Assembly (NCBI GenBank): GCA_963737265.1 | Contig: CAVTRY010000011.1 | Location: 608,001-672,000 of the forward strand | Origin: an uncultured delta proteobacterium | GTDB lineage: Bacteria > Myxococcota_A > Polyangia > Fen-1088 | Length of the DNA stretch: 64,000 nucleotides | Direction: 5' to 3' | In this document: piece after piece, positions 53,255 to 64,000 of the stretch | Numbering within the stretch: the first letter of the stretch is position 1 | Layout: each line of letters opens with the position of its first letter | Program-made: the position numbers and the translations under genes | The notes under the pieces: generated by a model | What the model saw: only the letters and a program-made list of their open reading frames with translations | What the model was told of the DNA's origin: nothing | Databases searched by the model: none

Positions 53255-53410
53255 AGATTCCTCGTGGTTGGGTTGCCCAGTTCTGGCATAAGAACGAAAC
53301 AGAGTCGCCCATTTTCGCACCCCGTGGACCAACCCGGCCGGTATTCCCAATTGGCGGGCGAGTCGGGTTAGTGTCTTGGTGATTTCGTGTTTATTCGAGA
53401 GGATGTCATC

Positions 53411-55774
53411 ATGACCGATCAGCAGACGCTTTCACGGATCGGGACGGTCTATTTTCTCGCGACGATTCTTGTCGCCTGCGCGGGGGCCAAGGTGGGCAGC
53501 GGCGACCAAGGAGGTACGAGCCCGGGTGGAAATGGTGTTGTTGTTGGCGGCGGCGGCACCACTGGAATCTCCATCAACCTCGACGGCGGGCCCTCTATCG
53601 GGGGAGTCGGTACGGGCGGGACAGGCGGCTACCAGCACCCCGCCACCAAGAATTTTCCTGAAGAAGCTACCTGCCAGGGCGCCTCGGGTCAGTGGGGCGA
53701 AGCCCTGCAGAAGGCGCTGTGGTTTCTCAATGTGAACAAGTCCGGGCCGGGTGTGCTGTCGACCTACGTTCAGTGGCGAGGCGATGCGCACCTGATGGAC
53801 CAGCACATCAAGTTGAGTCCAACCGATCCGACTGGCGTGAATATGTCGCAGGCATTCATCGACCAGAATCGCGCCGTGCTCGATCCCAAGGGTACCGGCG
53901 AGGTCGACCTGTCGGGCGGATTCCACGACGCCGGCGACTACATCAAGTTCGGCCTGACGACGGGTTTCACCGCGTCCACCGTGGCGTGGAGCCTCTACGA
54001 ATTTCCCGATTCCTTCCGTATCACGGGACTCGAGGACGAAACGCTCAACCTTCTACGCTGGGCCGACGACTACTTCATGAAGTCGACCTTCCTGGACAAC
54101 AACGGCAATTTCGTGGCCTTTGCCCATCAGGTTGGCGACGCCTCGGATCACACCTGCGGTTGGATGCCGCCCGAGCTGCGACGCGTCGACTTCTGCCCAC
54201 GCAAGGGCTACTTCGCCACCGCCGAGACGCCCGCGGCCGACGTTACGGCGAGCGCGGCCGCGGCGCTGGCGCTGACGTCGCTCGTGATCAAAGCCAAGGA
54301 CGCGGACTACGCGCAAGCCTGTCTCAAGTACGCCACCGCTCTTTACAAATTCGCCGCCCAGCACCCAGACACCGTCGGGAACACAACCGGAGGACTCTAC
54401 ACGTCCGAGTACGCGGCCGACGATCTGGCCTGGGCCGCCATCTGGCTGTATGAGGCGACGGGGACGCAATCCTATCTCGACGACGTCCTCGGCGTTGGCG
54501 GCGCTGGCGGCGGCTGGCTCGACCACTTCCCTGGCTTCAAGACCACCTGTCTGCAAAGCGCGGGAGCCAGCTGTTGGACCGAGTCGCAGACGCACGACTG
54601 GAACTCGGTCAGATCCGGCGTGTTCCTGAAACTCGCGCAGATTTTGCGCGATACCAACAGCCCTCTGGCCAAGGGGATGGCCATCATCGCGCGCGACGAC
54701 TCCATGAAGTGGCCGCAGGGCACTGTGGCCATGACACCGGCAGGGTTCTCCGTGCTCTACGCCTACGGCTCGGCCCGCTATAACTCGGCGGCGCAGTTCG
54801 TCGCCTTGCTCTATGCCAAGCTCTTCGGCGCGAAAGATCCGGACGCCGTTAACGCCATCACCCCCTGGGCCAAGAAGCAGATGGCCTACATCTTGGGCAG
54901 CAACCCGCTTGGTAAGTCGTACATGATGGGGTTCACCGACAACTACTGCAACCAGCCCCACCACGCCGCCGGCCACGCCTCGATCTGGGGCGAGCCCAAC
55001 AACCCGGTGGCCAACCGCCACATCATCTGGGGCGCTCTCATCAACGGTCCCGACGCCGCCGACGGTCACATCGACAACCGCGCCGACTTCGGCAGCAACG
55101 AGGTCACCATCGACTATAACGCCTCGCTCATCGCCGCCCTCGCCGCCCAGTATTCGCTGCAAGGAAATGGGCAGTGTCCCTTGGCGCAGTTCCCGCCGGT
55201 CGAACCCGAGATCGACGAATACTACACGCTTTCCAACCTCAACTCCGGGGGCTCCTGCCGTTCCCAGGTCACGGTCACGCTCATCAACGAGACCATCCAT
55301 CCGCCGCGCTACAACGAGAACCTGAGCGTGAAGTACTTCTTCGACATCAGCGAACTGCAGGCCCAGGGCAAGTCCATCAGCGACGTCACGGCCAGCCTGA
55401 TTTACGACCGCGGCGCCACCGAATTCGGCCAGCCATCCAGCATCGCCTCTCCCAAGCTTTGTCCCAAGAGCTCTTCGACCTACTACGTGGAAATGGGCTT
55501 CGCGGGCTACGACTTCTGGGGCCGCATCGTCCAGCTCAAGGCCCCGCGCACCTTCATGCTCGATATCGGCACCGCGAACGGCGCCGACTGCGTCTGGGAT
55601 CCATCCAACGACTGGAGCTACGCTTCCCTGCAGCCGGCGCCAACCGACGGTAGCGACCCGCCCAAGACGCCCCACATCACGGTGTATAGCAACGGCATCC
55701 TCGCCTGGGGCGAAGAGCCGCCCTGCTTCGACGAAACGGTCACGCCTCAGCCGCCGCCGATCTGGATCCCGTAG
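53411..55774 (+). CDS. GH9 endoglucanase with C-terminal CBM3-like module, lipoprotein
   Basis: Lipobox LVAC; DLSGGFHDAGDYIKF, PHH, D..ADF..NEVTIDYNA catalytic motifs; CBM3 features KYFFDISEL, YYVE, WDPSNDWSY, WGEEP. Confidence 0.93.
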   Translation: MTDQQTLSRIGTVYFLATILVACAGAKVGSGDQGGTSPGGNGVVVGGGGTTGISINLDGGPSIGGVGTGGTGGYQHPATKNFPEEATCQGASGQWGEALQKALWFLNVNKSGPGVLSTYVQWRGDAHLMDQHIKLSPTDPTGVNMSQAFIDQNRAVLDPKGTGEVDLSGGFHDAGDYIKFGLTTGFTASTVAWSLYEFPDSFRITGLEDETLNLLRWADDYFMKSTFLDNNGNFVAFAHQVGDASDHTCGWMPPELRRVDFCPRKGYFATAETPAADVTASAAAALALTSLVIKAKDADYAQACLKYATALYKFAAQHPDTVGNTTGGLYTSEYAADDLAWAAIWLYEATGTQSYLDDVLGVGGAGGGWLDHFPGFKTTCLQSAGASCWTESQTHDWNSVRSGVFLKLAQILRDTNSPLAKGMAIIARDDSMKWPQGTVAMTPAGFSVLYAYGSARYNSAAQFVALLYAKLFGAKDPDAVNAITPWAKKQMAYILGSNPLGKSYMMGFTDNYCNQPHHAAGHASIWGEPNNPVANRHIIWGALINGPDAADGHIDNRADFGSNEVTIDYNASLIAALAAQYSLQGNGQCPLAQFPPVEPEIDEYYTLSNLNSGGSCRSQVTVTLINETIHPPRYNENLSVKYFFDISELQAQGKSISDVTASLIYDRGATEFGQPSSIASPKLCPKSSSTYYVEMGFAGYDFWGRIVQLKAPRTFMLDIGTANGADCVWDPSNDWSYASLQPAPTDGSDPPKTPHITVYSNGILAWGEEPPCFDETVTPQPPPIWIP

Positions 55775-56110
55775 GACAAGCCCGGGCTTCGCCCGCAGTA
55801 GATCAGCGTCGCGGCCGCGGAGCGGGCGGCGTTGCTGTTGCGCCATCCTCGGGCCACCGCGCTGCACGCCCAAGCCCTGGCCCGCACGGCCGCCTGCCTC
55901 GCAACCTGGTGGCGAGCGCGGAGACTGGCTGAACTGACGACACCTCGACCAGGGCGGGATGGAGTAGACTGCCCTGCGTGCTCAACAGAGACCCCGTCAG
56001 GCCCCAGAAACCCGGTCAAGCGCGCTGCGCCAACGTGATCGGGGCCGACCTGATGCGGTCCGGCATGGTTCTCCGACGCTCAAAAAACCCATTCGAAATG
56101 CCTATGGTCA
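55470..56110 (+). repeat. 641-bp direct repeat, copy 1 (GH9 3' end + IS91-like right end)
   Basis: Near-identical to 60251-60893; I found only a 2-bp indel and one substitution. Confidence 0.95.
55830..56110 (+). mobile_element. IS91/ISCR-like remnant A1: decayed transposase C-terminus and oriIS-like end
   Basis: LLLRH/LGPPRCTPKPWPARPP..GDWLN* (stop 55937), then ATGGAGTAGACTGC motif and terminal CCCATTCGAAATGCCTATGG. Confidence 0.65.
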
Positions 56111-56150
56111 TGAGGCGCAGAGGTGTTTTGCAGCGAGGGCAGACGGTGTC

Positions 56151-56319
56151 GGCGACCTTCGCGGGACGCCATGGGGTACACTGCGCCCCGTGTTCGCGAC
56201 ACACCCTCAAACCTCCCCCGCGACAATCCCGCGTTTTGGCACCGGCCCACTCGCAAGCAACTCGGCCCGGCCTCGAAGGGTTCTCGCTCGTCGCAAAAAC
56301 CCTTTCGAAAGGACTAGGA
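56151..56319 (+). mobile_element. IS91/ISCR-like remnant B: diverged right end only
   Basis: ATGGGGTACACTGC at 56171 and AAAAACCCTTTCGAAAGGACTAGG end, with the same 142-bp spacing as A1. Confidence 0.6.
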
Positions 56320-56408
56320 TCCTCAGGCACCGCCTAGGCACCTGCGACTGCTCAGAGTTTCCGAGCTTGTGTTACCATGGCTGAGCGCCCTGAAATCAGG
56401 AGGTTCGG

Positions 56409-57726
56409 ATGCCCGGTCCTGCTCGCACCATTCTAGATAATCTAGGCAAGCAAACCCTGAGACGGCTGTGCGAAGAGCGTGGATTGCAAACCGCCAGAGA
56501 GCTCGATGAAATGCGCGCCCGCCTCGCACATTCCTTCAGGGGTGACACGAAAGAACTCGTAGACCGTCTTTCCCGGAGAGAAATGCAGCAGATTCTCGAT
56601 GTCTGGGAATTTGAAGTTGACGGACACTATGGGGGCTTGGTGGGTGTGTCATATGCGTCGAAGGATGACCTCGCGAAGGCTGTGCTGGTTATCTACGAGG
56701 ATGGCTGGGGCCCAACAAGTCGAAGCCTGAGCCCGGTGGGGAGTGGATCTCGGTTGCGTGTTTCGATCGATGACGAGACAGATTTGGAGGATTGCGCGCA
56801 TAAGCCCGAAGCTGAGGGTGGCCCCCAGACCGAGGAAGAGGCCGCCCAGCCGTTCGACGACGAAGGAGAAAGAAGCTTTCTCGCCGATCTCTGATTCGAA
56901 ACTCGCCGAGCGAGGTCGCACCACCACGTACATTCGCAGGCTGGTGAACGACCTTGGCAGACACCACGCCGAACATCGCCTTCGGTTGAGCGCCGTTCGA
57001 CACGTTGGCCACGTGCTTGTGAGCGCTGGAATGTCTACAGACCCCGATCTGTCGACAATGACCGCAGCACCTGGAATCGACGCCCGCGTTGTCGTCATCC
57101 GGCGCATGGCCTCACCTAGGAGGAGGCACGATTCGGCAATTACGCGCGACGTTATCTCGCGCTCAGATCCACCACCCGGAACGATGAGGATTCGGCCACC
57201 GACAGCACCATCACCGGTACCTTCCGCACAACCTTCCGGATTCGAGATGGCGAACGAGCAACTGAAATTCCTGGTTACTGTCGCCACTTCGATCAGCATT
57301 CTGAACCAAGAAGGGCGAGCGCAGGCCGTCGAGATGGCTTCGGAGGGAATCGAACTTAGCGCGGCGGATCGAATCCGGTTGAAGGCATTCTCCCATCAAT
57401 ATGCCGGTGGCAACTTCGAATTAGGGCGCACTTTGGCCTATCTCCGCGCCGGACTTCCGGAACGCAGGCGGCAGCAGTTGCTCGATTGTCTCCTCGTACT
57501 CGCGCCGACCTGTCAAGCACTAGACGAAGCGCGGGAGGCTCATGCAGTTGAACTAGGGGTACAAGCGCGTATCGAGTCCCCGCCCTCGGCCCCACCTGCG
57601 AATAGCCAACAGACGGTCACTCCCGCCCAATCCACGAAATCCGAGCCAATCGGACAAGGCCAAATCGAGGCTGGCGGGGTACGACAGAACGAAGGACTCG
57701 ACTCAGTCTTTGGAAAGGGGACGTAG
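56409..57726 (+). CDS. Hypothetical multidomain protein with TerB-like C-terminal region; apparent 1-bp insertion near 56892
   Basis: AGGAGG RBS at ATG 56409. ORFs 56409..56894 and 56743..57726 fuse as ERSFLADL-DSKLAERG if one T is removed. Helical C-domain resembles TerB-like folds (by eye). Confidence 0.6.
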
Positions 57727-57728
57727 TC

Positions 57729-59789
57729 ATGGGCAACCAAGGAACGATTGACTCCGACGCCACCCTTGCCCGGGCTGTCTATGGGACGCGTGTTGTTGAC
57801 AAGAGCCTTTCAGGAGAAGAGGCATTTGCACGCCTTCCTCGCTTTGTTACCGAGTATCTCTTCGCAAAATATGTGCGCCCAGGGCGCGAACAGGAAGACT
57901 TGCAGTCCTTGAAGGAGAAGATTCGCGGTCGCATTCCGGAGGCTGACCAGAAAGAAATAATCAAGAACCGGCTCATGCGGGACGGTGAATATGTCGTAAT
58001 CGATCAACTAGAAGCCGAGGTTGATCTCGTCGAGAACTGTCACCGCGCGCGCTTGAACTGCCTGGATTCCGAATCGATTCAAATCGATGCCGATCTCGTA
58101 GATCGTTTTGAGGGCGTCCTGAGTGGCGGACTATGGGGAACCGTGACCCTCAGATACGATTCCTCAGCACCCCCAAAACTGAAGATTGCTGTCAAAGCCT
58201 TCGTTCCATTTCAGCTTGACCGTCCCGACGTCGATGGGTTCAAGAAAGGGCGGAGCCGCTTTGCTCTTGATGAATGGATCCGCCTGCTTCTTCGAAGCGC
58301 GGGGTACGAGCCTGACACAATCCCGAGCGAGCGCCAGAGATGGTTGCTTCTTGCCCGGATGATCCCACTGGTCGAACGAAATTTGAATCTGATCGAGCTT
58401 GGGCCGAGGGGTACGGGCAAGACCTTTCTACTCAGAAATCTCTCTCCGACGGTGTTCACCATCTCGGGAGGTCGACCTTCGCCGGCAACCCTTTTCATTC
58501 ACAAAGTCTCGCAGCGACTCGGCATCATAGGCACGCGCAAGGTGGTTGTATTTGATGAGATTGCCGCAACCACTTTTCCAGACCGGGAAACTGTTGCTAC
58601 TCTCAAGGATTACATGGAGAGCGGGCAGTTCAGTCGGGGCAGGAAGGTTGTCGCGTCCGACGCAAGTCTGGTCCTGACCGGGAATCTTGAGGTTTCCGGC
58701 GATCAGCCCAGCGAGCAATACACCCATTTGTTCCAGGAGCTGCCAGCGCCGTTAGTCGATGCCGCATTCTTGGATCGAATTCATGGGTACTTGCCAGGCT
58801 GGGAGATACCGAAAGTGAGTGAAGCGTCTCTAGCCCAAGGCGTTGGGTTTGTGACTGACTATTTTGGAGAGGTATTGAAATCGCTCCGAGACGATGATGT
58901 CGCGCGGGCACTTGATCCTGTTGATCCTGGCGCCAGCGCAACAATTCGTGACGCAAGGGGCGCGCGCCGAATCGCCTCCGGAATGTTGAAGCTGCTTTTC
59001 CCAGACGGAAGCCATTCAGAAGAAGACGTAAAGCGATGCATGCGGTTTGGGATCGAGCTGCGACAACGCGTCCACAACCAGCTGACCCAGATTGCCCCAG
59101 GAGAGTTCGCGCGAAAAGTCCTCGCATTTCCGGGCATGGAACCACATGAGGCACGCGACCTGGTGGAGTCGAGAAAAGTTCAAGAACGCGACGTGCGCGC
59201 CAATCGTGAGCCGGTAGTTGGACAAGTGACAGGCTTGGTCGTGTTGCAGACGGGTGGTGTGATTACTGGTGGCGATGTCTTCTTCACGGAGGTTTCATTG
59301 TTGCGCGGACGGGGTGGCGCGGGCTTTAGCATCACCGGCTTGAGAGGACCGGTCCTAAATGATTCAGTTAAGACAGCTTTCCAAGTGCTCCAGCAACTAG
59401 GGGGTCAGTGGAAAGGCGTTCCCCCACGCCTCGCAGATTCGACGGTGGCGGTTCACCTGGTGAACATCGCAGATCCTAAGGAGGGACCTTCCGCCGGTGT
59501 CGCGTTCGTTACAGCGATGGTCTCGGCGGCGTTAGGAATCCCTGTGCGGCCAGCCTTGGCCATGACGGGGGAAGTAACTCTTCACGGTTTCATCGGTCAG
59601 GTTGGCGGCATCGTCCACAAACTCAAAGCAGCCGTCCAGCACCAGCGCAAGCTCGTGATTATTCCTGCGCAGAACGCCGGTGATCTTCGCGACGTCCCCG
59701 ACGACATACTAACTGCCGTCGAGATTCGCACGGTAAGTCGGATCGAGGAAGTCCTGGAACTGGCTCTGGAACGTCTGCCCAATGACTAG
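57729..59789 (+). CDS. brxL: BrxL-like Lon-related AAA+ ATPase with S16 protease domain
   Basis: PRFVTEYL N-domain, ELGPRGTGKT Walker A, VVVFDE Walker B, LKDYMESGQFSRG, AFLDRIHGYLPGWEIPK; protease PKEGPSAG with Lys 43 residues downstream. Confidence 0.88.
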   Translation: MGNQGTIDSDATLARAVYGTRVVDKSLSGEEAFARLPRFVTEYLFAKYVRPGREQEDLQSLKEKIRGRIPEADQKEIIKNRLMRDGEYVVIDQLEAEVDLVENCHRARLNCLDSESIQIDADLVDRFEGVLSGGLWGTVTLRYDSSAPPKLKIAVKAFVPFQLDRPDVDGFKKGRSRFALDEWIRLLLRSAGYEPDTIPSERQRWLLLARMIPLVERNLNLIELGPRGTGKTFLLRNLSPTVFTISGGRPSPATLFIHKVSQRLGIIGTRKVVVFDEIAATTFPDRETVATLKDYMESGQFSRGRKVVASDASLVLTGNLEVSGDQPSEQYTHLFQELPAPLVDAAFLDRIHGYLPGWEIPKVSEASLAQGVGFVTDYFGEVLKSLRDDDVARALDPVDPGASATIRDARGARRIASGMLKLLFPDGSHSEEDVKRCMRFGIELRQRVHNQLTQIAPGEFARKVLAFPGMEPHEARDLVESRKVQERDVRANREPVVGQVTGLVVLQTGGVITGGDVFFTEVSLLRGRGGAGFSITGLRGPVLNDSVKTAFQVLQQLGGQWKGVPPRLADSTVAVHLVNIADPKEGPSAGVAFVTAMVSAALGIPVRPALAMTGEVTLHGFIGQVGGIVHKLKAAVQHQRKLVIIPAQNAGDLRDVPDDILTAVEIRTVSRIEEVLELALERLPND

Positions 59790-59811
59790 CTAGCGAGGCG
59801 CGATGCGATGC

Positions 59812-60250
59812 GCATAGGCGAATCGAATGGGGTACTCGGACCACCACACCCTCGCGCGCACCTGGACAGCATGGCGGAGCGGGTTTGGCCGGCGGGATTC
59901 GCGTGGCGAAAGGTCTGTCTTGACCACGAGCGCAGTCTACCCCATGGCGAGCCCGCCTAGGTCGCCTTGATCAGTTCAGCCAGGCGTCGCCGCTACCAGT
60001 CTTGCGGGGCGGCGGACGCGCGGGGCGTAGCTGAGCGACGGGCGCGGCGAAGCCGCGTGGGGGCCTTGCGCTTGTTTGCTGGGCCGGCTGGCGCTGCCCC
60101 AGTGGTAGCAGCCGCGAGCAACCTGGCCAGGAGCGGATCCTTCTCCGCCATGGTCTCGTCGCTGACGACGGTGACCTCGCTGTCGCCCGGCGCGGCGACT
60201 AGGGTGATGACGCTGCGGCGCTGGAGGAAGCGGAGAATGCGCTTGCTGGC
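59812..60250 (-). mobile_element. IS91/ISCR-like remnant C: internally deleted transposase and oriIS-like end
   Basis: Minus strand KRILRFLQRRSVITLVAAPGD..LLARLLAAATTGAAPAGP fused out of frame to RPARPPPRKTGSGDAWLN* (stop 59971), then ATGGGGTAGACTGC and CCCATTCGATTCGCCTATGC. Confidence 0.7.
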
Positions 60251-60893
60251 GCTCTTCGACCTACTACGTGGAAATGGGCTTCGCGGGCTACGACTTCTGG
60301 GGCCGCATCGTCCAGCTCAAGGCCCCGCGCACCTTCATGCTCGATATCGGCACCGCGAACGGCGCCGACTGCGTCTGGGATCCATCCAACGACTGGAGCT
60401 ACGCTTCCCTGCAGCCGGCGCCAACCGACGGTAGCGACCCGCCCAAGACGCCCCACATCACGGTGTATAGCAACGGCATCCTCGCCTGGGGCGAAGAGCC
60501 GCCCTGCTTCGACGAAACGGTCACGCCTCAGCCGCCGCCGATCTGGATCCCGTAGGACAAGCCCGGGCTTCGCCCGCAGTAGATCAGCGTCGCGGCCGCG
60601 GAGCGGGCGGCGTTGCTGTTGCGCCATCCTCGGGCCACCGCGCTGCACGCCCAAGCCCTGGCCCGCACGGCCGCCTGCCTCGCAACCTGGTGGCGAGCGC
60701 GCGGAGACTGGCTGAACTGACGACACCTCGACCAGGGCGGGATGGAGTAGACTGCCCTGCGTGCTCGACAGAGACCCCGTCAGGCCCCAGAAACCCGGTC
60801 AAGCGCGCTGCGCCAACGTGATCGGGGCCGACCTGATGCGGTCCGGCATGGTTCTCCGACGCTCAAAAAACCCATTCGAAATGCCTATGGTCA
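60251..60893 (+). repeat. 643-bp direct repeat, copy 2 (GH9/CBM3 3' fragment + IS91-like end A2)
   Basis: ORF 60268..60555 is identical to the GH9 C-terminus; the match runs to ...ATGCCTATGGTCA. Confidence 0.95.
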
Positions 60894-60894
60894 G

Positions 60895-61356
60895 ATGCGC
60901 TCTCCAGGCAAGAACCTAATCGCGAGGCTTCTGGCGACCAGTTCGCCGTCCGCCGTGGTGCTCATGCGACTGACCGTGGGGGCCGTATTCCTTTCCGAAG
61001 GCATTCAGAAATTCCTATTCCCGGCCGCGCTCGGGGCCGGTCGGTTTGCCAAGATAGGTATCCCTTGGCCGGAGTTCAGCGCGCCCTTCGACGGGGGTTT
61101 TGAGGTCGGTTGCGGTCTTCTGGTCCTTGTCGGCCTTGGAACTCGGCTCGCCACGCTCCCGCTCATCGTCGACATGTTGGTTGCCATCGCGACGACGAAG
61201 ATCCCGATGCTTTTCAAGAGCGGGTTCTGGAGCACGCTGCACGAGGCACGGACCGACTGGTCGATGCTCCTTGGCGCGCTTTTTCTCCTGATCGTTGGGG
61301 GCGGCGCCTGGTCGCTCGATGCGTGGCTCGCTCGACGAGACACCGCGCGTGACTGA
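60895..61356 (+). CDS. DoxX family membrane protein
   Basis: LMRLTVGAVFLSEGIQKF, GLGTRLA, GGGAWSLD. Confidence 0.9.
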   Translation: MRSPGKNLIARLLATSSPSAVVLMRLTVGAVFLSEGIQKFLFPAALGAGRFAKIGIPWPEFSAPFDGGFEVGCGLLVLVGLGTRLATLPLIVDMLVAIATTKIPMLFKSGFWSTLHEARTDWSMLLGALFLLIVGGGAWSLDAWLARRDTARD

Positions 61357-61876
61357 CGGGGCTGCGAGCGAGCCCGACCGGCTGGCGCCAAACCGGCTAC
61401 GGAATATGGCATGGTTCTTTCTGCGCCTGGGATTCACGGCGTTCGGTGGGCCGGCGGCTCATGTTGCGATGATGGAAGAAGAGGTCGTCCGGCGGCGCGG
61501 CTGGCTCAAGCGAGATGAGTTCCTCGATCTCCTCGGCGCGACCAACCTCATCCCCGGCCCGAACTCAACGGAGATGGCGATCTTCATCGGGCACAAGCGA
61601 GCTGGTTGGCCCCGTCTGGTGCTTGGCGGTGCGTGCTTCGTCCTGCCCGCCGCGCTGATAACCCTTGCGTTTGCTTGGGCATACGTCCGATTTGGCTCCA
61701 TCCCACAGGTGGCGGCGCTGCTCTACGGAGTCAACCCGATCATCATCGCGATTGTGGTGCAGGCGCTTTGGGGGTTGGGGCGAACCGCGGTGAAGTCGCG
61801 GATGCTGGCGGCTCTTGCCGTGCTCGCGGCGGTCGCGAGCTTCGCAGGGCTCAACGCGCCCCTGGTTCTGCAATGA
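61349..61876 (+). pseudogene. chrA: Chromate transporter ChrA, N-terminal half only
   Basis: GFTAFGGPAAH, IPGPNSTE, FVLPA; ends abruptly at APLVLQ* with no second domain or partner gene. Confidence 0.8.
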
Positions 61877-62165
61877 CTTCGCACCGATCGATTGCGGCGC
61901 TTGCCATCGGCATCCTGCTCTCGCCCGCGACCGGGTACGCGGGTCCGCCCTACGTGACGGATGACCCCCCAGCCCGTGGAATTCCGCCACTGGGAGTTCT
62001 ATCTGGCAACCCAGCATTCCGTTACCCATGAGGCCGCATCCGGAACCGCTCCGCACATCGAGGTGAACTACGGTGCCTTGCCTGGACTCCAGCTTCACGT
62101 AATCGCCCCGCTGGCGTACGCGCATTCGAGCGATGGTCTCACGTTCTACGGCCTGGGCAACATGT
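61873..62165 (+). pseudogene. Fragment of secreted/outer-membrane protein (GPPYxTDDP N-terminus), frameshifted and truncated
   Basis: Signal peptide + GPPYVTDDP, frameshift in the C-run near 61966-61970, continues QPVEFRHWEFY..EVNYG..LQLH, then breaks off. Confidence 0.65.
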
Positions 62166-62257
62166 GTGCAGGTTTGCACCAAGTTCTACGCAAGAGGAAT
62201 CGTCTCGGCCTTGACGGCATCCAATAGCGCGTCGATGCCGACCAAGGAAAAGCCGCG

Positions 62258-62875
62258 ATGTCGAAACTGACGGTCACGTCCTTTGTGAGCCTGGATGGCG
62301 TCATGCAAGCGCCCGGCGCGCCCAAGGAAGACCCGAGCGGTGGTTTCGCGCACGGCGGTTGGTTGGTGCCCTTCGCCGACGCCGACATGGGCGCCTTCAT
62401 GGTCGGAGTATTCGCGCGCGCCGATGCATTCCTGCTCGGCCGCGGAACGTACCAGATCTTCGCGTCGCACTGGCCACGGGTCTCCGACACGAACGATCCT
62501 ATCGCCCTGGCCTTGAACGGATTGCCCAAATACGTGGCCTCGAAGACCCTGGCCAAGGTCGACTGGAACAACGCCTCGCCGGTGCGGAACATCGTTGAGG
62601 ATCTCGGCGCCATCAAGAGCCGCCACGCCCGCGAGCTGCAAGTGCATGGCAGCCCTGGCCTCATTCAAACCTTGATCCGTCACGAGCTGGTCGACGAATT
62701 CAACCTGCTCACTTTTCCCGTCGTGCTGGGCACGGGAAAGCGCTTGTTTGGCCCAGGCTCCATTCCCGCCGCGCTCAAGCTCGCGAGTTCCCGCACGAGC
62801 AGTACAGGCGTCGTCATTTCCACCTACGCCCGCGCGGGGCGCCCCAGCTACGGCTCGTTCGCGCTCGACGCTTGA
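62258..62875 (+). CDS. Dihydrofolate reductase/RibD C-terminal domain protein
   Basis: FVSLDGVMQAPG, LLGRGTY, KYVAS, VHGS, LVDE, PVVLGTGKRLF. Confidence 0.92.
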   Translation: MSKLTVTSFVSLDGVMQAPGAPKEDPSGGFAHGGWLVPFADADMGAFMVGVFARADAFLLGRGTYQIFASHWPRVSDTNDPIALALNGLPKYVASKTLAKVDWNNASPVRNIVEDLGAIKSRHARELQVHGSPGLIQTLIRHELVDEFNLLTFPVVLGTGKRLFGPGSIPAALKLASSRTSSTGVVISTYARAGRPSYGSFALDA

Positions 62876-63115
62876 GGTGACCAAAGTCGTGCGAAGGAAT
62901 CGACAATCAGTTGTGAGATGAGGGCACCAGTAAACCCGTTTAGTTGGTAGGTTTCTCGGATACCTTCGCCGGTGCCGGGCAGCGGAAGTCGTTTTTGCGG
63001 TATACGTCTTTTCGGTCCCCGAGGGACCTGGCGAGGCTCGAAGGCGAGAAGTAAGGAGTCCCCGTCACGAGCTGGTCGATGCTCGCCGGCTGAGACATGG
63101 TCGTAATACTGGCCA

Positions 63116-63754
63116 TTAGTCCGCTTCGATGCCAACGCGCAATCCGAGGGTAAGAATCGCTTGCCGAAGAGTATCGTCGGCCGAAAGACGACCACTCCGC
63201 CGGGTGCCGCGAAGCGCTGAACCAGCGCGGTCACCGAACAGGACAAGCGCCTTATCCTGGTCGCGCTTGCAGGATATCCAGAGCAGACCGTCCACCTTAT
63301 GATACTGCCGATGCAGAGCTTGTGCCCACAGTGCGGTGTTTAAGTAGTCGGTGGGCGGACTCTCGATCAGCTCGTCCTTCGGGATCTTGAGAAGATGAAG
63401 ACGATCGGTCGTCAAGTCGATGAGCTTCAGGTCACGGTCTGGTATTACCACTCCATGGGACCGATCGCCGAATTCGTCCAAATCTACGAACTTGTCTGGC
63501 GCATCGATTGGTACGTTGTGGAAGATGGTCTCGAAGATAGCTCCCTCAAGCGACGAGCCACCGTAGAGATAGGGCACTGGCTTGCCGGAAGAGTCATGAA
63601 TCGGAGCGAAGCGGGTCGGCTTAGTCGGTGCAGCGGCGAGGTTGAAGCTTTGTGGCTCGAAGTCGGTATGGTGAATCGTGTGGATCTCGGTGCCGGCTGG
63701 CCAGCCATAGACATTGGCAACGAGCGACTTTCCCGGCGGGAGACGGCAGGTCAA
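63116..63754 (-). CDS. RES domain toxin (NAD+ phosphorylase-like)
   Basis: TTG start overlapping the antitoxin stop; RFAP, LYGG, FETIFHNVP, WAQALH, DGLLWIS, LVLFGDR. Confidence 0.85.
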   Translation of the reverse strand: MTCRLPPGKSLVANVYGWPAGTEIHTIHHTDFEPQSFNLAAAPTKPTRFAPIHDSSGKPVPYLYGGSSLEGAIFETIFHNVPIDAPDKFVDLDEFGDRSHGVVIPDRDLKLIDLTTDRLHLLKIPKDELIESPPTDYLNTALWAQALHRQYHKVDGLLWISCKRDQDKALVLFGDRAGSALRGTRRSGRLSADDTLRQAILTLGLRVGIEAD

Positions 63755-64000
63755 GCCGCGCTCCCTCCGGCATCTCGGCGGGCCGCCTCGATCACGTCTT
63801 TGGGCGACGAGGTCAACAAATCCACGGGGCGTGCCTGGTTCGGAAGCCAACCGTTGTTCGACGTGAACCATAGCGCCAACTTCCACGGAGACTTCCGTTC
63901 GCCGAACGCTTCGATGATCTCCCGCACAGCCTTGATCGGGCGGTGGTCCTCGAACTGAAACAGGGGAAAGACCTCGTGTTGTCCCTTCTTGGCATCGCGA
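63751..64000 (-). CDS. Xre/MbcA/ParS-type antitoxin, C-terminal part (5' end outside window)
   Basis: Not in the ORF track. Reads FPLFQF..SPWKLALWFTSNNGWLPNQARPVDLL..VIEAAR*; coupled to the RES gene. Confidence 0.85.
   Translation of the reverse strand, partial: RDAKKGQHEVFPLFQFEDHRPIKAVREIIEAFGERKSPWKLALWFTSNNGWLPNQARPVDLLTSSPKDVIEAARRDAGGSAA

What the first reader, a model, noticed from the sequence alone, without database searches (positions are those of the whole stretch)
55830..60893. Four related IS91/ISCR-like right ends (oriIS-like) clustered in 5 kb with no intact transposase
Seen: a shared module ATGG[AG]GTA[GC]ACTGC ... CCC[AT]TTCGA..[CA]CTA[TG] occurs at 55959-56107 (+), 56171-56319 (+), 59945-59812 (-) and 60742-60890 (+). 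The spacing is 142 bp in the three + copies and 127 bp in the - copy. A1/A2 and C are preceded by a coding remnant ending PARPP...WLN*. B and C point inward at the BrxL cassette. Known: IS91/ISCR rolling-circle elements end in an oriIS resembling TTTGAAxTTCCTAT downstream of the transposase. Inference: a family of non-autonomous rolling-circle ends that builds a gene-capture hotspot. The ORF track does not show it.
Basis: partly seen in the sequence, partly recalled or inferred. Interest (0 to 1): 0.82.

Follow-up and report, generated by a model that had tools for sequence, protein, structure and literature searches.

The report
ISCR-like rolling-circle element ends, gene mosaic
The four repeats are the right-hand ends of broken IS91/ISCR-type rolling-circle insertion sequences, a known kind of mobile element, here sitting in a patchwork of imported genes and repeated pieces of a neighbouring cellulase gene.

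Summary
Both sequence boxes occur exactly four times in the window, where shuffles expect none.

The modules are the 3' non-coding, oriIS-type ends of an IS91/ISCR-family element. The same genome holds three intact 1.7-kb copies. Their 501-aa transposase ends in ...DWLN* and carries Zn_Tnp_IS91 and Y2_Tnp domains. It is 37% identical to the ISCR1 transposase over its full length. The 59970-60250 peptide is a remnant of that transposase.

- A1 and C are not independent. They belong to one 641-bp duplicated unit (cellulase 3' end + hrpB tail + 254-bp element remnant).
- A2 and B, not B and C, face the BrxL cassette.

A third cellulase-3' copy lies just beyond the window, next to an intact hrpB. 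About 9.1 kb therefore sits between two genes that are adjacent in one relative.

Elsewhere in the genome, copies share upstream DNA of variable length at 99.7-100% identity. That is the signature of one-ended read-through.

The layout resembles ISCR1-linked class 1 integrons with 3'-CS duplications. Verdict: a new member of a known kind, of moderate interest.

The parts
53387..55774 (+). GH9 cellulase gene. Its 3' end is the segment that is repeated three times.
   Evidence: Pfam Glyco_hydro_9 + CBM_3. Copies of its 3' end lie at 60251-60555 and, beyond the window, at the equivalent of 64449-64905.
55803..55856 (-). 54-nt remnant (last 17 codons plus stop) of the hrpB helicase gene, cut off by the A1 remnant.
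   Evidence: Identical to the 3' end of the intact 908-aa HrpB gene at L042:2932-5658(-). Homology stops at 55856|55857.
55857..56110 (+). A1: 254-bp 5'-truncated right end of the family-1 ISCR-like element. It holds the last ~26 transposase codons, the stop at 55935-55937 and the 173-nt oriIS-type region.
   Evidence: 90% identical to element positions 1478-1720 of 1721. tblastn matches Tnp residues 473-501.
55470..56110 (+). Direct repeat copy 1 (GH9 3' fragment + hrpB tail + A1).
   Evidence: Equals 60251-60893.
56104..56151 (-). 48-bp inverted fragment of a transposase gene (residues 444-459), abutting the A1 terminus.
   Evidence: blastn 92% to element positions 1371-1418. tblastn match DTVCPRCKTPLRL.
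56151..56322 (+). A2: diverged right-end module of a third element lineage. Its terminus faces the cassette.
   Evidence: 77% identical to C15:169282-169452, which follows a transposase C-terminal remnant. The conserved terminal core is kept.
56342..59804 (+). Imported cassette: unknown ORFs (56409-56894 and 57247-57726) plus a BrxL-type Lon-like protease gene (57729-59789).
   Evidence: 98.4% identical over 3463 bp to G010:C10:972-4432, where the flanks are unrelated and hold no element ends. Pfam BrxL_N / BrxL_ATPase / Lon_C and PADLOC BrxL.
59813..59945 (-). B: diverged right-end module. Its terminus faces the cassette, and it lacks about 26 nt of the conserved core.
   Evidence: 98% identical to C13:561907-561996. 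The same type of end follows a longer transposase gene in G010.
59971..60260 (-). Internally deleted transposase remnant belonging to B: C-terminus ...DAWLN* at 59974-60033 and residues 228-292 at 60050-60247.
60251..60893 (+). Direct repeat copy 2: GH9 3' fragment (60251-60555), hrpB tail (60584-60637) and C, the second copy of the 254-bp remnant (60638-60893).
60894..64000 (.). Second block on the oriIS side (it runs to about 64448, beyond the window). It holds DoxX (60895-61356), a chromate-transporter half (61295-61876), a RibD_C protein (62258-62875), a RES toxin (63116-63886, -) and its upstream partner ORF.
   Evidence: Pfam. The block is followed by the third GH9 3' copy and an intact hrpB.

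Best explanation
The four modules are the 3' non-coding, oriIS-type right ends of IS91/ISCR-family rolling-circle insertion sequences.

Identity of each module:
- A1 and C are two copies of a 254-bp, 5'-truncated remnant of a 1721-bp element that has intact copies elsewhere in the genome.
- A2 and B belong to a diverged sister lineage. No intact copy of it was seen in G000, or at the two G010 loci examined.
- None of them can move by itself. A transposase supplied in trans by the intact copies could nick at the terminus (...CCTAT|GGTC) and replicate leftwards.

How the mosaic arose (inferred):
- The remnant has no terIS, so replication runs into whatever lies to its left. Here that is the hrpB tail and the GH9 3' end, and it stops at variable points.
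- Such [GH9'-hrpB'-end] units, carrying foreign DNA next to their oriIS end, re-entered the GH9/hrpB locus. They did so by homologous recombination or by integration at a resident end.
- The result is GH9-h-A1 | A2-BrxL cassette-B | GH9'-h-C | DoxX...RES | GH9'-h-hrpB.

Shown: the identity of the ends, the nested repeats, the ancestral adjacency of GH9 and hrpB in one relative, the foreign origin of the cassette, and read-through copies elsewhere in the genome.

Inferred: the order of events, and that these particular remnants were the active ends.
For: Family and transposase:
- The A1 module has 31 matches in the genome. Homology stops sharply at its right end and extends leftwards into a transposase gene.
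- Three intact 501-aa ORFs end in ...DWLN*.
- The protein hits Pfam Y2_Tnp (1.4e-22) and Zn_Tnp_IS91 (5.7e-15).
- NCBIfam ISCR clade Ia scores 292 bits, against 86.5 bits for transpos_IS91.
- It is 37% identical to the ISCR1 transposase (E 3e-101), with the HUH motif and a single Tyr aligned.

Ends:
- The terminus TTTGATTCCCCTATGGTC resembles the ISCR1 terminus TTTATACTTCCTATACC.
- None of the 25 longest inverted repeats joins the two ends.
- The flank after CTAT is GGTC or GGCC in 18 of 27 ends.

Signs of one-ended transposition in this genome:
- 17 of 27 right ends are 5'-truncated and 8 are complete.
- 11 of 15 left ends share 29 to more than 988 nt of upstream DNA with another copy, at 98.5-100% identity and with different lengths.

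Locus:
- Three GH9 3' copies differ by at most 1 nt where they overlap. hrpB is intact after the third.
- GH9 and hrpB are convergent neighbours, 47 bp apart, in G011.
- The cassette is 98% identical to one in G010 with other flanks. Its homology breakpoints lie 8 nt and about 20 nt from the termini of B and A2.
Against: - No junction of the mosaic could be checked against reads. The genome has 25 contigs and 7.6% contamination.
- DNA next to an oriIS end is not what leftward replication from that end copies. Placing the cassette and the DoxX block on the oriIS side therefore needs circular intermediates or recombination, which were not observed.
- The third GH9'-hrpB junction lacks the remnant. 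Simple recombination into a chromosome that already carried the remnant would have left one there.
- The left ends of the repeats begin GCTC (55470) and GAAC (55318). Other read-through copies begin with unrelated letters, so no consistent surrogate termination site emerges.
- About 6 fragments have a left end but no right end, so decay is not purely one-sided.
- B lacks part of the conserved core.
- GH9/hrpB adjacency was seen in only 1 of 5 relatives' loci examined.
Confidence: 0.85

Rival explanations
1. The ends are dead relics. On this view the mosaic arose by ordinary homologous or illegitimate recombination and segmental duplication among dispersed element fragments in a recombination-tolerant region. 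These remnants played no rolling-circle role.
For: All four local copies are truncated, and B lacks part of the conserved core. The imported DNA lies on the oriIS side, which leftward replication does not copy. Left-end-only fragments also exist. No consistent termination tetranucleotide was found.
Against: Each repeat unit has a fixed right end at the exact element terminus and a variable left end (55470, 55318). The same pattern recurs in 11 of 15 left ends genome-wide at near-identity. Intact transposase genes are present in trans. Short re-duplications sit at the termini.
Confidence: 0.25
2. The nested 0.5-0.64-kb repeats are an assembly artefact. Alleles of the GH9/hrpB locus from co-assembled strains would have been chained together.
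For: Contamination is 7.6% and the genome has 25 contigs. The repeats are 99.7-100% identical. No junction could be checked against reads.
Against: The junctions at 60250/60251 and 64448/64449 join unrelated sequence to internal GH9 positions, inside a 1.4-Mb contig. Chaining of alleles would not create these. Comparable variable-length duplicated flanks occur on five other contigs.
Confidence: 0.08
3. The module is an independent small repeat or non-coding RNA gene (REP/MITE-like) that only happens to lie near transposase remnants.
For: About 150-170 nt with two conserved boxes. Many copies lack a transposase gene.
Against: It always starts at the transposase stop codon, and homology always ends at its 3' end. 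There is no Rfam match over 54000-62000. Folding z-scores run from -0.3 to +1.3. RNAalifold finds no consensus structure in 13 sequences.
Confidence: 0.02

Closest known systems
ISCR1 (IS91-like 'common region' element) and ISCR1-linked ('complex') class 1 integrons
   Same: - The transposase is 37% identical over its full length, with the HUH motif and one Tyr aligned.
- Both have a long oriIS-containing region after the stop codon: 173 nt here against 232 nt in ISCR1 (PMC6218425, passages seen).
- Both termini end in ...CCTAT...
- Variable imported genes lie on the oriIS side.
- The element is fused to a truncated upstream 'conserved segment' that is partly duplicated beyond the imported genes. 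Here the GH9 3' end plays the part of the 3'-CS (PMC3575428, passage seen).
   Different: - The NCBIfam ISCR clade Ia score is 292 bits, against a cut-off of 925, so this is a distant lineage.
- The setting is the chromosome of an environmental bacterium, with no integron and no resistance genes.
- The local copies are 254-bp stubs without a transposase gene, whereas ISCR1 keeps its gene.
- No sigma-70-like outward promoter was found in the ends.
IS91 / IS801 / IS1294 (classical IS91 family)
   Same: - Zn_Tnp_IS91 and Y2_Tnp domains.
- Two unlike ends and no terminal inverted repeats.
- A conserved tetranucleotide next to oriIS: GGTC/GGCC here, against CTTG, GTTC or GTCC in the classical elements.
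- One-ended transposition that carries upstream DNA (PMC13181058, passages seen).
   Different: - NCBIfam transpos_IS91 scores 86.5 bits, below its cut-off of 125, and covers only the N-terminal part.
- There is one Tyr in the motif LCKYILRPP, not two. That IS91 has two is recalled, not tested here.
- There is no orf121.
- Shared upstream flanks occur in 11 of 15 left ends, far above the 1-10% read-through reported for IS91.
Truncated ISCR2 remnants next to sul2 (the CR2-sul2 unit)
   Same: A 5'-truncated element that keeps its oriIS end and abuts passenger genes.
   Different: This comparison is recalled from the literature. Only the search listing of PMC9376610 was seen, and no sequence comparison was made here.

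Membership tests
IS91/ISCR family insertion sequence | HUH-type rolling-circle transposase with an N-terminal zinc-binding domain | tested here: met
   Pfam Zn_Tnp_IS91 (55.5 bits, cut-off 26.3) and Y2_Tnp (81 bits, cut-off 20.9) on the intact copy L031:5347-6849. HFH aligns with the HYH of ISCR1. Inside the finding only remnants exist: residues 228-292, 444-459 and 473-501.
IS91/ISCR family insertion sequence | Two unlike ends (terIS upstream, oriIS downstream of the gene) and no terminal inverted repeats | tested here: met
   The left end is GCTCAAGCAACTTCCGTG..., 42 nt before the ATG. The right end is ...TTCGA..GCCTATGGTC. None of the 25 longest of 76 inverted pairs joins the two termini.
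IS91/ISCR family insertion sequence | A conserved tetranucleotide abutting the oriIS end | tested here: inconclusive
   GGTC follows CTAT in 14 of 27 pattern hits and GGCC in 4 of 27. It co-varies with the sub-lineage, so it may belong to the element rather than to the target. No clean empty site was available.
IS91/ISCR family insertion sequence | No target-site duplication | tested here: inconclusive
   The flanks of the 60251-60893 unit and of A1 show no short direct repeat. No insertion could be compared with its empty site on both sides.
IS91/ISCR family insertion sequence | One-ended transposition: fixed oriIS end, variable far end that carries upstream DNA | tested here: met
   Copies share 186, 515, 117, 199, 988 and at least 1496 nt of upstream DNA at 91.7-100% identity; only the 117-nt flank falls below 99.6%. 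The GH9 3' repeats start at 55470 and 55318 and share the same right end.
IS91/ISCR family insertion sequence | Rolling-circle transposition with circular intermediates | not testable with these tools
   Needs experiments or raw long reads.
ISCR subgroup (NCBIfam ISCR clade Ia) | Score over the curated cut-off of the clade model | tested here: not met
   291.8 bits against a cut-off of 925, although the match is full-length (residues 7-472 on profile positions 18-486 of 509). It is ISCR-like, not a member of that clade.
NCBIfam transpos_IS91 (equivalog) | Score over the curated cut-off | tested here: not met
   86.5 bits against 125. The best stretch covers residues 35-198 only.
BREX system (for the cassette) | BrxL gene accompanied by pglZ, pglX and brxC | tested here: not met
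   The only PglZ match in the genome is at C11:346629-347036, about 319 kb away. The two neighbouring ORFs have no PADLOC, Pfam or NCBIfam match.

The most novel reading that the evidence does not exclude
This genus may host a currently active ISCR-like family in which running past terIS is the usual outcome, not a rare error. In it, a 254-bp oriIS stub fused to a chromosomal gene end (GH9'-hrpB') would act as a portable 'conserved segment + end' module, mobilised in trans. That module would dock imported defence, toxin-antitoxin and transport genes back into one chromosomal site. This would be a natural, non-clinical counterpart of complex class 1 integron assembly, and a tractable system for showing ISCR transposition, which was still undemonstrated as of PMC6218425 (2018).
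Probability: 0.3. Interest if true: 0.6.

Novelty: new member of a known kind. Interest (0 to 1): 0.38.

Why it matters
ISCR elements are held responsible for assembling multi-resistance regions. Yet one paper seen here states that, as of 2018, no ISCR had been shown experimentally to transpose (PMC6218425).

This environmental genome has three things that make it a useful natural record of how such elements pick up and re-deposit neighbouring DNA:
- intact and near-identical copies;
- many copies with variable-length carried flanks;
- a locus built like an ISCR1-linked integron, but from a cellulase gene end, a BrxL-type protease cassette and a RES toxin pair.

For genome annotation, the practical point is that these 150-250-bp stubs mark breakpoints of imported DNA that gene callers do not show.

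Tried and rejected
- **Rfam.** A permissive search of 54000-62000 gave only three sub-threshold chance hits, none on a module.
- **tRNA/tmRNA.** None in the window, so there is no tRNA-type attachment site.
- **Single-strand DNA folds.** The four modules are no more stable than shuffles (z from -0.32 to +1.34).
- **RNAalifold.** On 13 diverse ends it gave essentially no consensus structure (-0.03). I therefore could not show the subterminal palindromes described for IS91.
- **Promoter scan.** 0 sigma-70-like sites in 55700-61000, with 1.0 expected. There is no support for an ISCR1-like outward promoter, although the organism's promoters may differ.
- **Public runs.** The best run holds 25% of the sampled words. 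Of the 32 contig pieces listed (148 more not shown), none spans 55856/55857, 56110/56111, 60250/60251 or 60893/60894. The exact-match contigs of one run end at 55856. The assembly of the repeats could be neither confirmed nor refuted.
- **Original home of DoxX.** In G001 its neighbour maps to a different G000 contig. Which genome is rearranged cannot be told.
- **Termination tetranucleotide.** The left ends of the repeats and of the read-through copies show no consistent one.
- **Small cassette ORFs.** PADLOC, Pfam and NCBIfam gave nothing.
- **Unavailable sources.** The Toleman 2006 ISCR review is not held, so the model for complex integron formation is cited from recall and from PMC3575428 and PMC6218425. 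Supplementary files were not consulted.
- **Integron attC sites and Helitron-like elements.** Considered and dropped. There is no integrase, and the transposase match is decisive.
Full report

Yes. The 5' box ATGGRGTASACTGC occurs at 55959, 56171, 59945(-) and 60742. The 3' box CCCWTTCGANNNSMCTAK occurs at 56088-56105, 56300-56317, 59831-59814(-) and 60871-60888. Each gives four hits, against 0.00 expected in 100 dinucleotide-preserving shuffles. An alignment of the four modules with two ends from intact elements shows both boxes conserved.

Three details need correction:
- A1 and C are not independent. They lie in one direct repeat, 55470-56110 = 60251-60893, whose copies differ by one substitution and a 2-nt indel.
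- A2 is not preceded by a ...WLN* remnant. It is preceded by a 48-bp inverted transposase fragment.
- The two ends that face the BrxL cassette are A2 (+) and B (-). C faces DoxX.

**2. What the module is**

- A 176-nt query around A1 finds 31 places in the window's own 6.55-Mb genome.
- In 22 copies with 2.5-kb flanks, homology always stops at the module's right edge. In many copies it extends leftwards for up to 1.7 kb or more.
- The upstream sequence is a 501-aa ORF ending ...SGGEGGDWLN*. It is intact at C23:543346-544851, C23:1673-168(-) and C8:27681-26176(-).
- The protein hits Pfam Y2_Tnp and Zn_Tnp_IS91 above their cut-offs.
- Its best NCBIfam model is 'ISCR element clade Ia' (292 bits, full length, below the narrow cut-off of 925). 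'transpos_IS91' scores 86.5 bits, below its cut-off of 125.
- tblastn against plasmids returns ISCR1 and ISVsa3 transposases at about 36% identity over about 95% of the protein.
- A direct comparison with an ISCR1 transposase gives 37% identity, E 3e-101. HFHVL aligns with HYHML, and LCKYILRPP with LCRYISRPA.
- The minus-strand remnant next to B matches residues 228-292 at 80% identity, and also the C-terminus.

The module is the stretch from the transposase stop codon to the element's right terminus. In IS91/ISCR terms this is the oriIS-containing region (PMC13181058, PMC13393415 and PMC6218425, passages seen).

**3. Anatomy of the element**

- Comparing copies puts the left end at GCTCAAGCAACTTCCGTG..., 42 nt before the ATG. 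The length is 1721 bp.
- The right end reads ...GGGTTCTCCGACGCTCAAAA.CCC.TT(C/T)GA....(C/A)CTATGGTC(C/A).
- The terminal letters resemble the ISCR1 terminus ...TTTATACTTCCTATACC, which lies 232 nt after that gene's stop (PMC6218425).
- After CTAT the next letters are GGTC in 14 of 27 pattern hits and GGCC in 4 of 27. This is close to the GTTC, CTTG and GTCC targets of IS91-family members (PMC13181058). It co-varies with the sub-lineage, so I cannot say whether it belongs to the target or to the element.
- No terminal inverted repeat joins the two ends.
- I found no Rfam family, no unusual fold, no conserved structure and no sigma-70-like promoter in the ends.
- The genome holds at least three lineages:
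  - family 1 (A1 and C);
  - a lineage at 45% transposase identity, with a different terminus ...GTTTCCCTTACGCGTC;
  - the A2/B lineage. Its relatives follow transposase remnants at C15:169045, C12:28911 and in G010, and no intact gene was seen.
- B lacks about 26 nt of the conserved terminal block. This explains its shorter spacing and suggests it is defective.

**4. The locus**

Reading left to right:
- GH9 cellulase gene (53387-55774).
- A 28-nt spacer, then the last 54 nt of hrpB on the minus strand (55803-55856).
- A1, a 254-bp remnant (55857-56110).
- An inverted 48-bp transposase fragment.
- A2 (56151-56322).
- A 3463-bp cassette (56342-59804).
- B (59945-59813, minus strand) with its internally deleted transposase remnant (to 60260).
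- The second copy of [GH9 3' end from 55470 + hrpB tail + remnant] (60251-60893).
- DoxX, whose ATG lies 1 nt after the shared repeat ends at 60893, a half chromate transporter, a RibD_C protein, and a RES toxin with its upstream partner ORF.
- Beyond the window, at the equivalent of 64449-64985, a third GH9 3' copy that starts at 55318. This one continues into an intact 908-aa hrpB gene.

Where the three GH9 copies overlap they differ by at most 1 nt. In relative G011, GH9 and hrpB are convergent neighbours 47 bp apart. In the four other relatives' loci examined, no hrpB lay within the about 1.5 kb that was held. So about 9.1 kb has been placed between two formerly adjacent genes, framed by nested partial duplications.

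The cassette is foreign. It is 98.4% identical to G010:C10, whereas GH9 orthologues in the genus are 74-77% identical. In G010 it has unrelated flanks and no element ends. Its homology breakpoints lie 8 nt from the B terminus and about 20 nt from the A2 terminus. BrxL stands without other BREX genes: the only PglZ match is about 319 kb away.

**5. Is the family active, and does it carry neighbours?**

- Of 27 family-1 right ends, 8 reach the left end, 2 are cut by contig ends, and 17 are truncated at element positions 247-1609.
- Of 15 left ends, 11 share upstream DNA with at least one other copy. The shared lengths differ (29, 43, 117, 186, 199, 515, 988 and at least 1496 nt), at 98.5-100% identity except the 117-nt flank (about 92%). 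A fixed right end with a variable left end is the signature of one-ended transposition (PMC13181058, PMC3575428).
- Five of 26 family-1 right ends, and at least 3 of 9 ends of the second lineage, carry short tandem re-duplications of their last 9-90 nt. This fits repeated action at the terminus.
- Four of the 31 matches lie within 2.2 kb of a contig end, as expected for a recently amplified repeat.

**6. Most likely mechanism**

Shown: the ends are ISCR/IS91-type. The local copies are non-autonomous. Intact transposase genes exist in trans. The GH9 3' units share an exact right terminus and have different left termini.

Inferred:
- The 254-bp stub has no terIS. Rolling-circle replication started at its terminus would therefore run into the hrpB tail and GH9, and stop at variable points.
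- This would give units [GH9'-h-stub]. Such units landed next to other DNA: an older pile of element fragments beside the BrxL cassette, and the DoxX block.
- The resulting larger units or circles returned to the GH9/hrpB site. They returned either by recombination within the 539-641-bp shared segment or by integration at a resident terminus.
- Two nested single-crossover integrations reproduce the present order exactly.

Weak points:
- The imported DNA lies on the oriIS side.
- The last GH9'-hrpB junction carries no stub. That requires integration into a chromosome that did not yet have the stub.

**7. Comparison with known systems**

- The layout parallels ISCR1-linked class 1 integrons: a truncated conserved segment, then the element, then a variable region on the oriIS side, then a partial duplication of the conserved segment (PMC3575428, PMC6218425). 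An example record shows sul1 - ISCR1 - trpF/ble/blaNDM-1.
- The differences are a distant transposase lineage, a chromosomal environmental setting, stubs instead of a complete element, and no resistance genes.
- Membership of the IS91/ISCR family is met on the transposase domains, the asymmetric ends and the read-through signature. The curated NCBIfam cut-offs for ISCR clade Ia and for transpos_IS91 are both not met, so it is a new lineage within the family.

**8. Caveats and rivals**

- The repeats could not be verified with reads.
- Plain recombination among dead fragments could have built part of the mosaic (about 0.25).
- An assembly artefact is unlikely but not excluded (about 0.08).
- An element-independent repeat or RNA is essentially excluded (about 0.02).

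**9. Verdict**

This is a new member of a known kind: a well-preserved natural example of ISCR-type gene shuffling outside the clinical setting. Its interest is moderate, mainly as a candidate system for demonstrating ISCR transposition and as a marker of imported DNA.

Noticed in passing
window 56409-57726, compared with L043:1039-2354: The ORFs upstream of the BrxL-like gene are split differently in the two genomes: 161 + 159 aa in G000 and 216 + 222 aa in G010. The G000 frame 56743-57726 reads through the G010 stop. They may be one longer gene hit by different frameshifts, or by sequencing indels. No family match in Pfam, NCBIfam or PADLOC.
   Followed up: partly
window 57729-59789: The BrxL-type Lon-like protease (PADLOC BrxL, 1.2e-144) stands without other BREX genes. 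The only PglZ match in the genome is about 319 kb away. The cassette is 98% identical in a second genome of the genus.
   Followed up: partly
G000 C14:364190, C14:418420, C14:431216, C12:46247 and C19:10041; also C23:6447, C23:17497 and C13:568994: Short tandem re-duplications of the last 9-90 nt of element right ends occur in two different lineages. They may be footprints of repeated nicking or abortive insertion at the terminus.
   Followed up: partly
window 60893-60897: The C terminus ends 1 nt before the DoxX start codon. The GGAGG ribosome-binding site seen upstream of DoxX in relative G001 is replaced by element sequence.
   Followed up: partly
window 63116-63886(-) and 63751-64362(-) (the second runs past the window end): A RES-domain ORF with an overlapping upstream 203-aa ORF that has no family match. 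It looks like a RES-type toxin-antitoxin pair inside the imported block.
   Followed up: no
window 61295-61876: A half-length (193-aa) chromate-transporter ORF overlaps the end of DoxX by 62 nt, and no partner half follows. It is either truncated or a lone short-chain CHR protein.
   Followed up: no
L031:4696-5298 (G000 C23), copied at C14:~451.5k, C14:~446.3k (partial) and C23:~2.3k: A 200-aa ORF of unknown family lies just upstream of the element's left end. It has been copied together with the element in the read-through copies, which makes it a passenger gene.
   Followed up: partly
G008:C9:8289-103528: A relative carries at least eight family-1 copies, all in the same orientation, within about 100 kb.
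   Followed up: no
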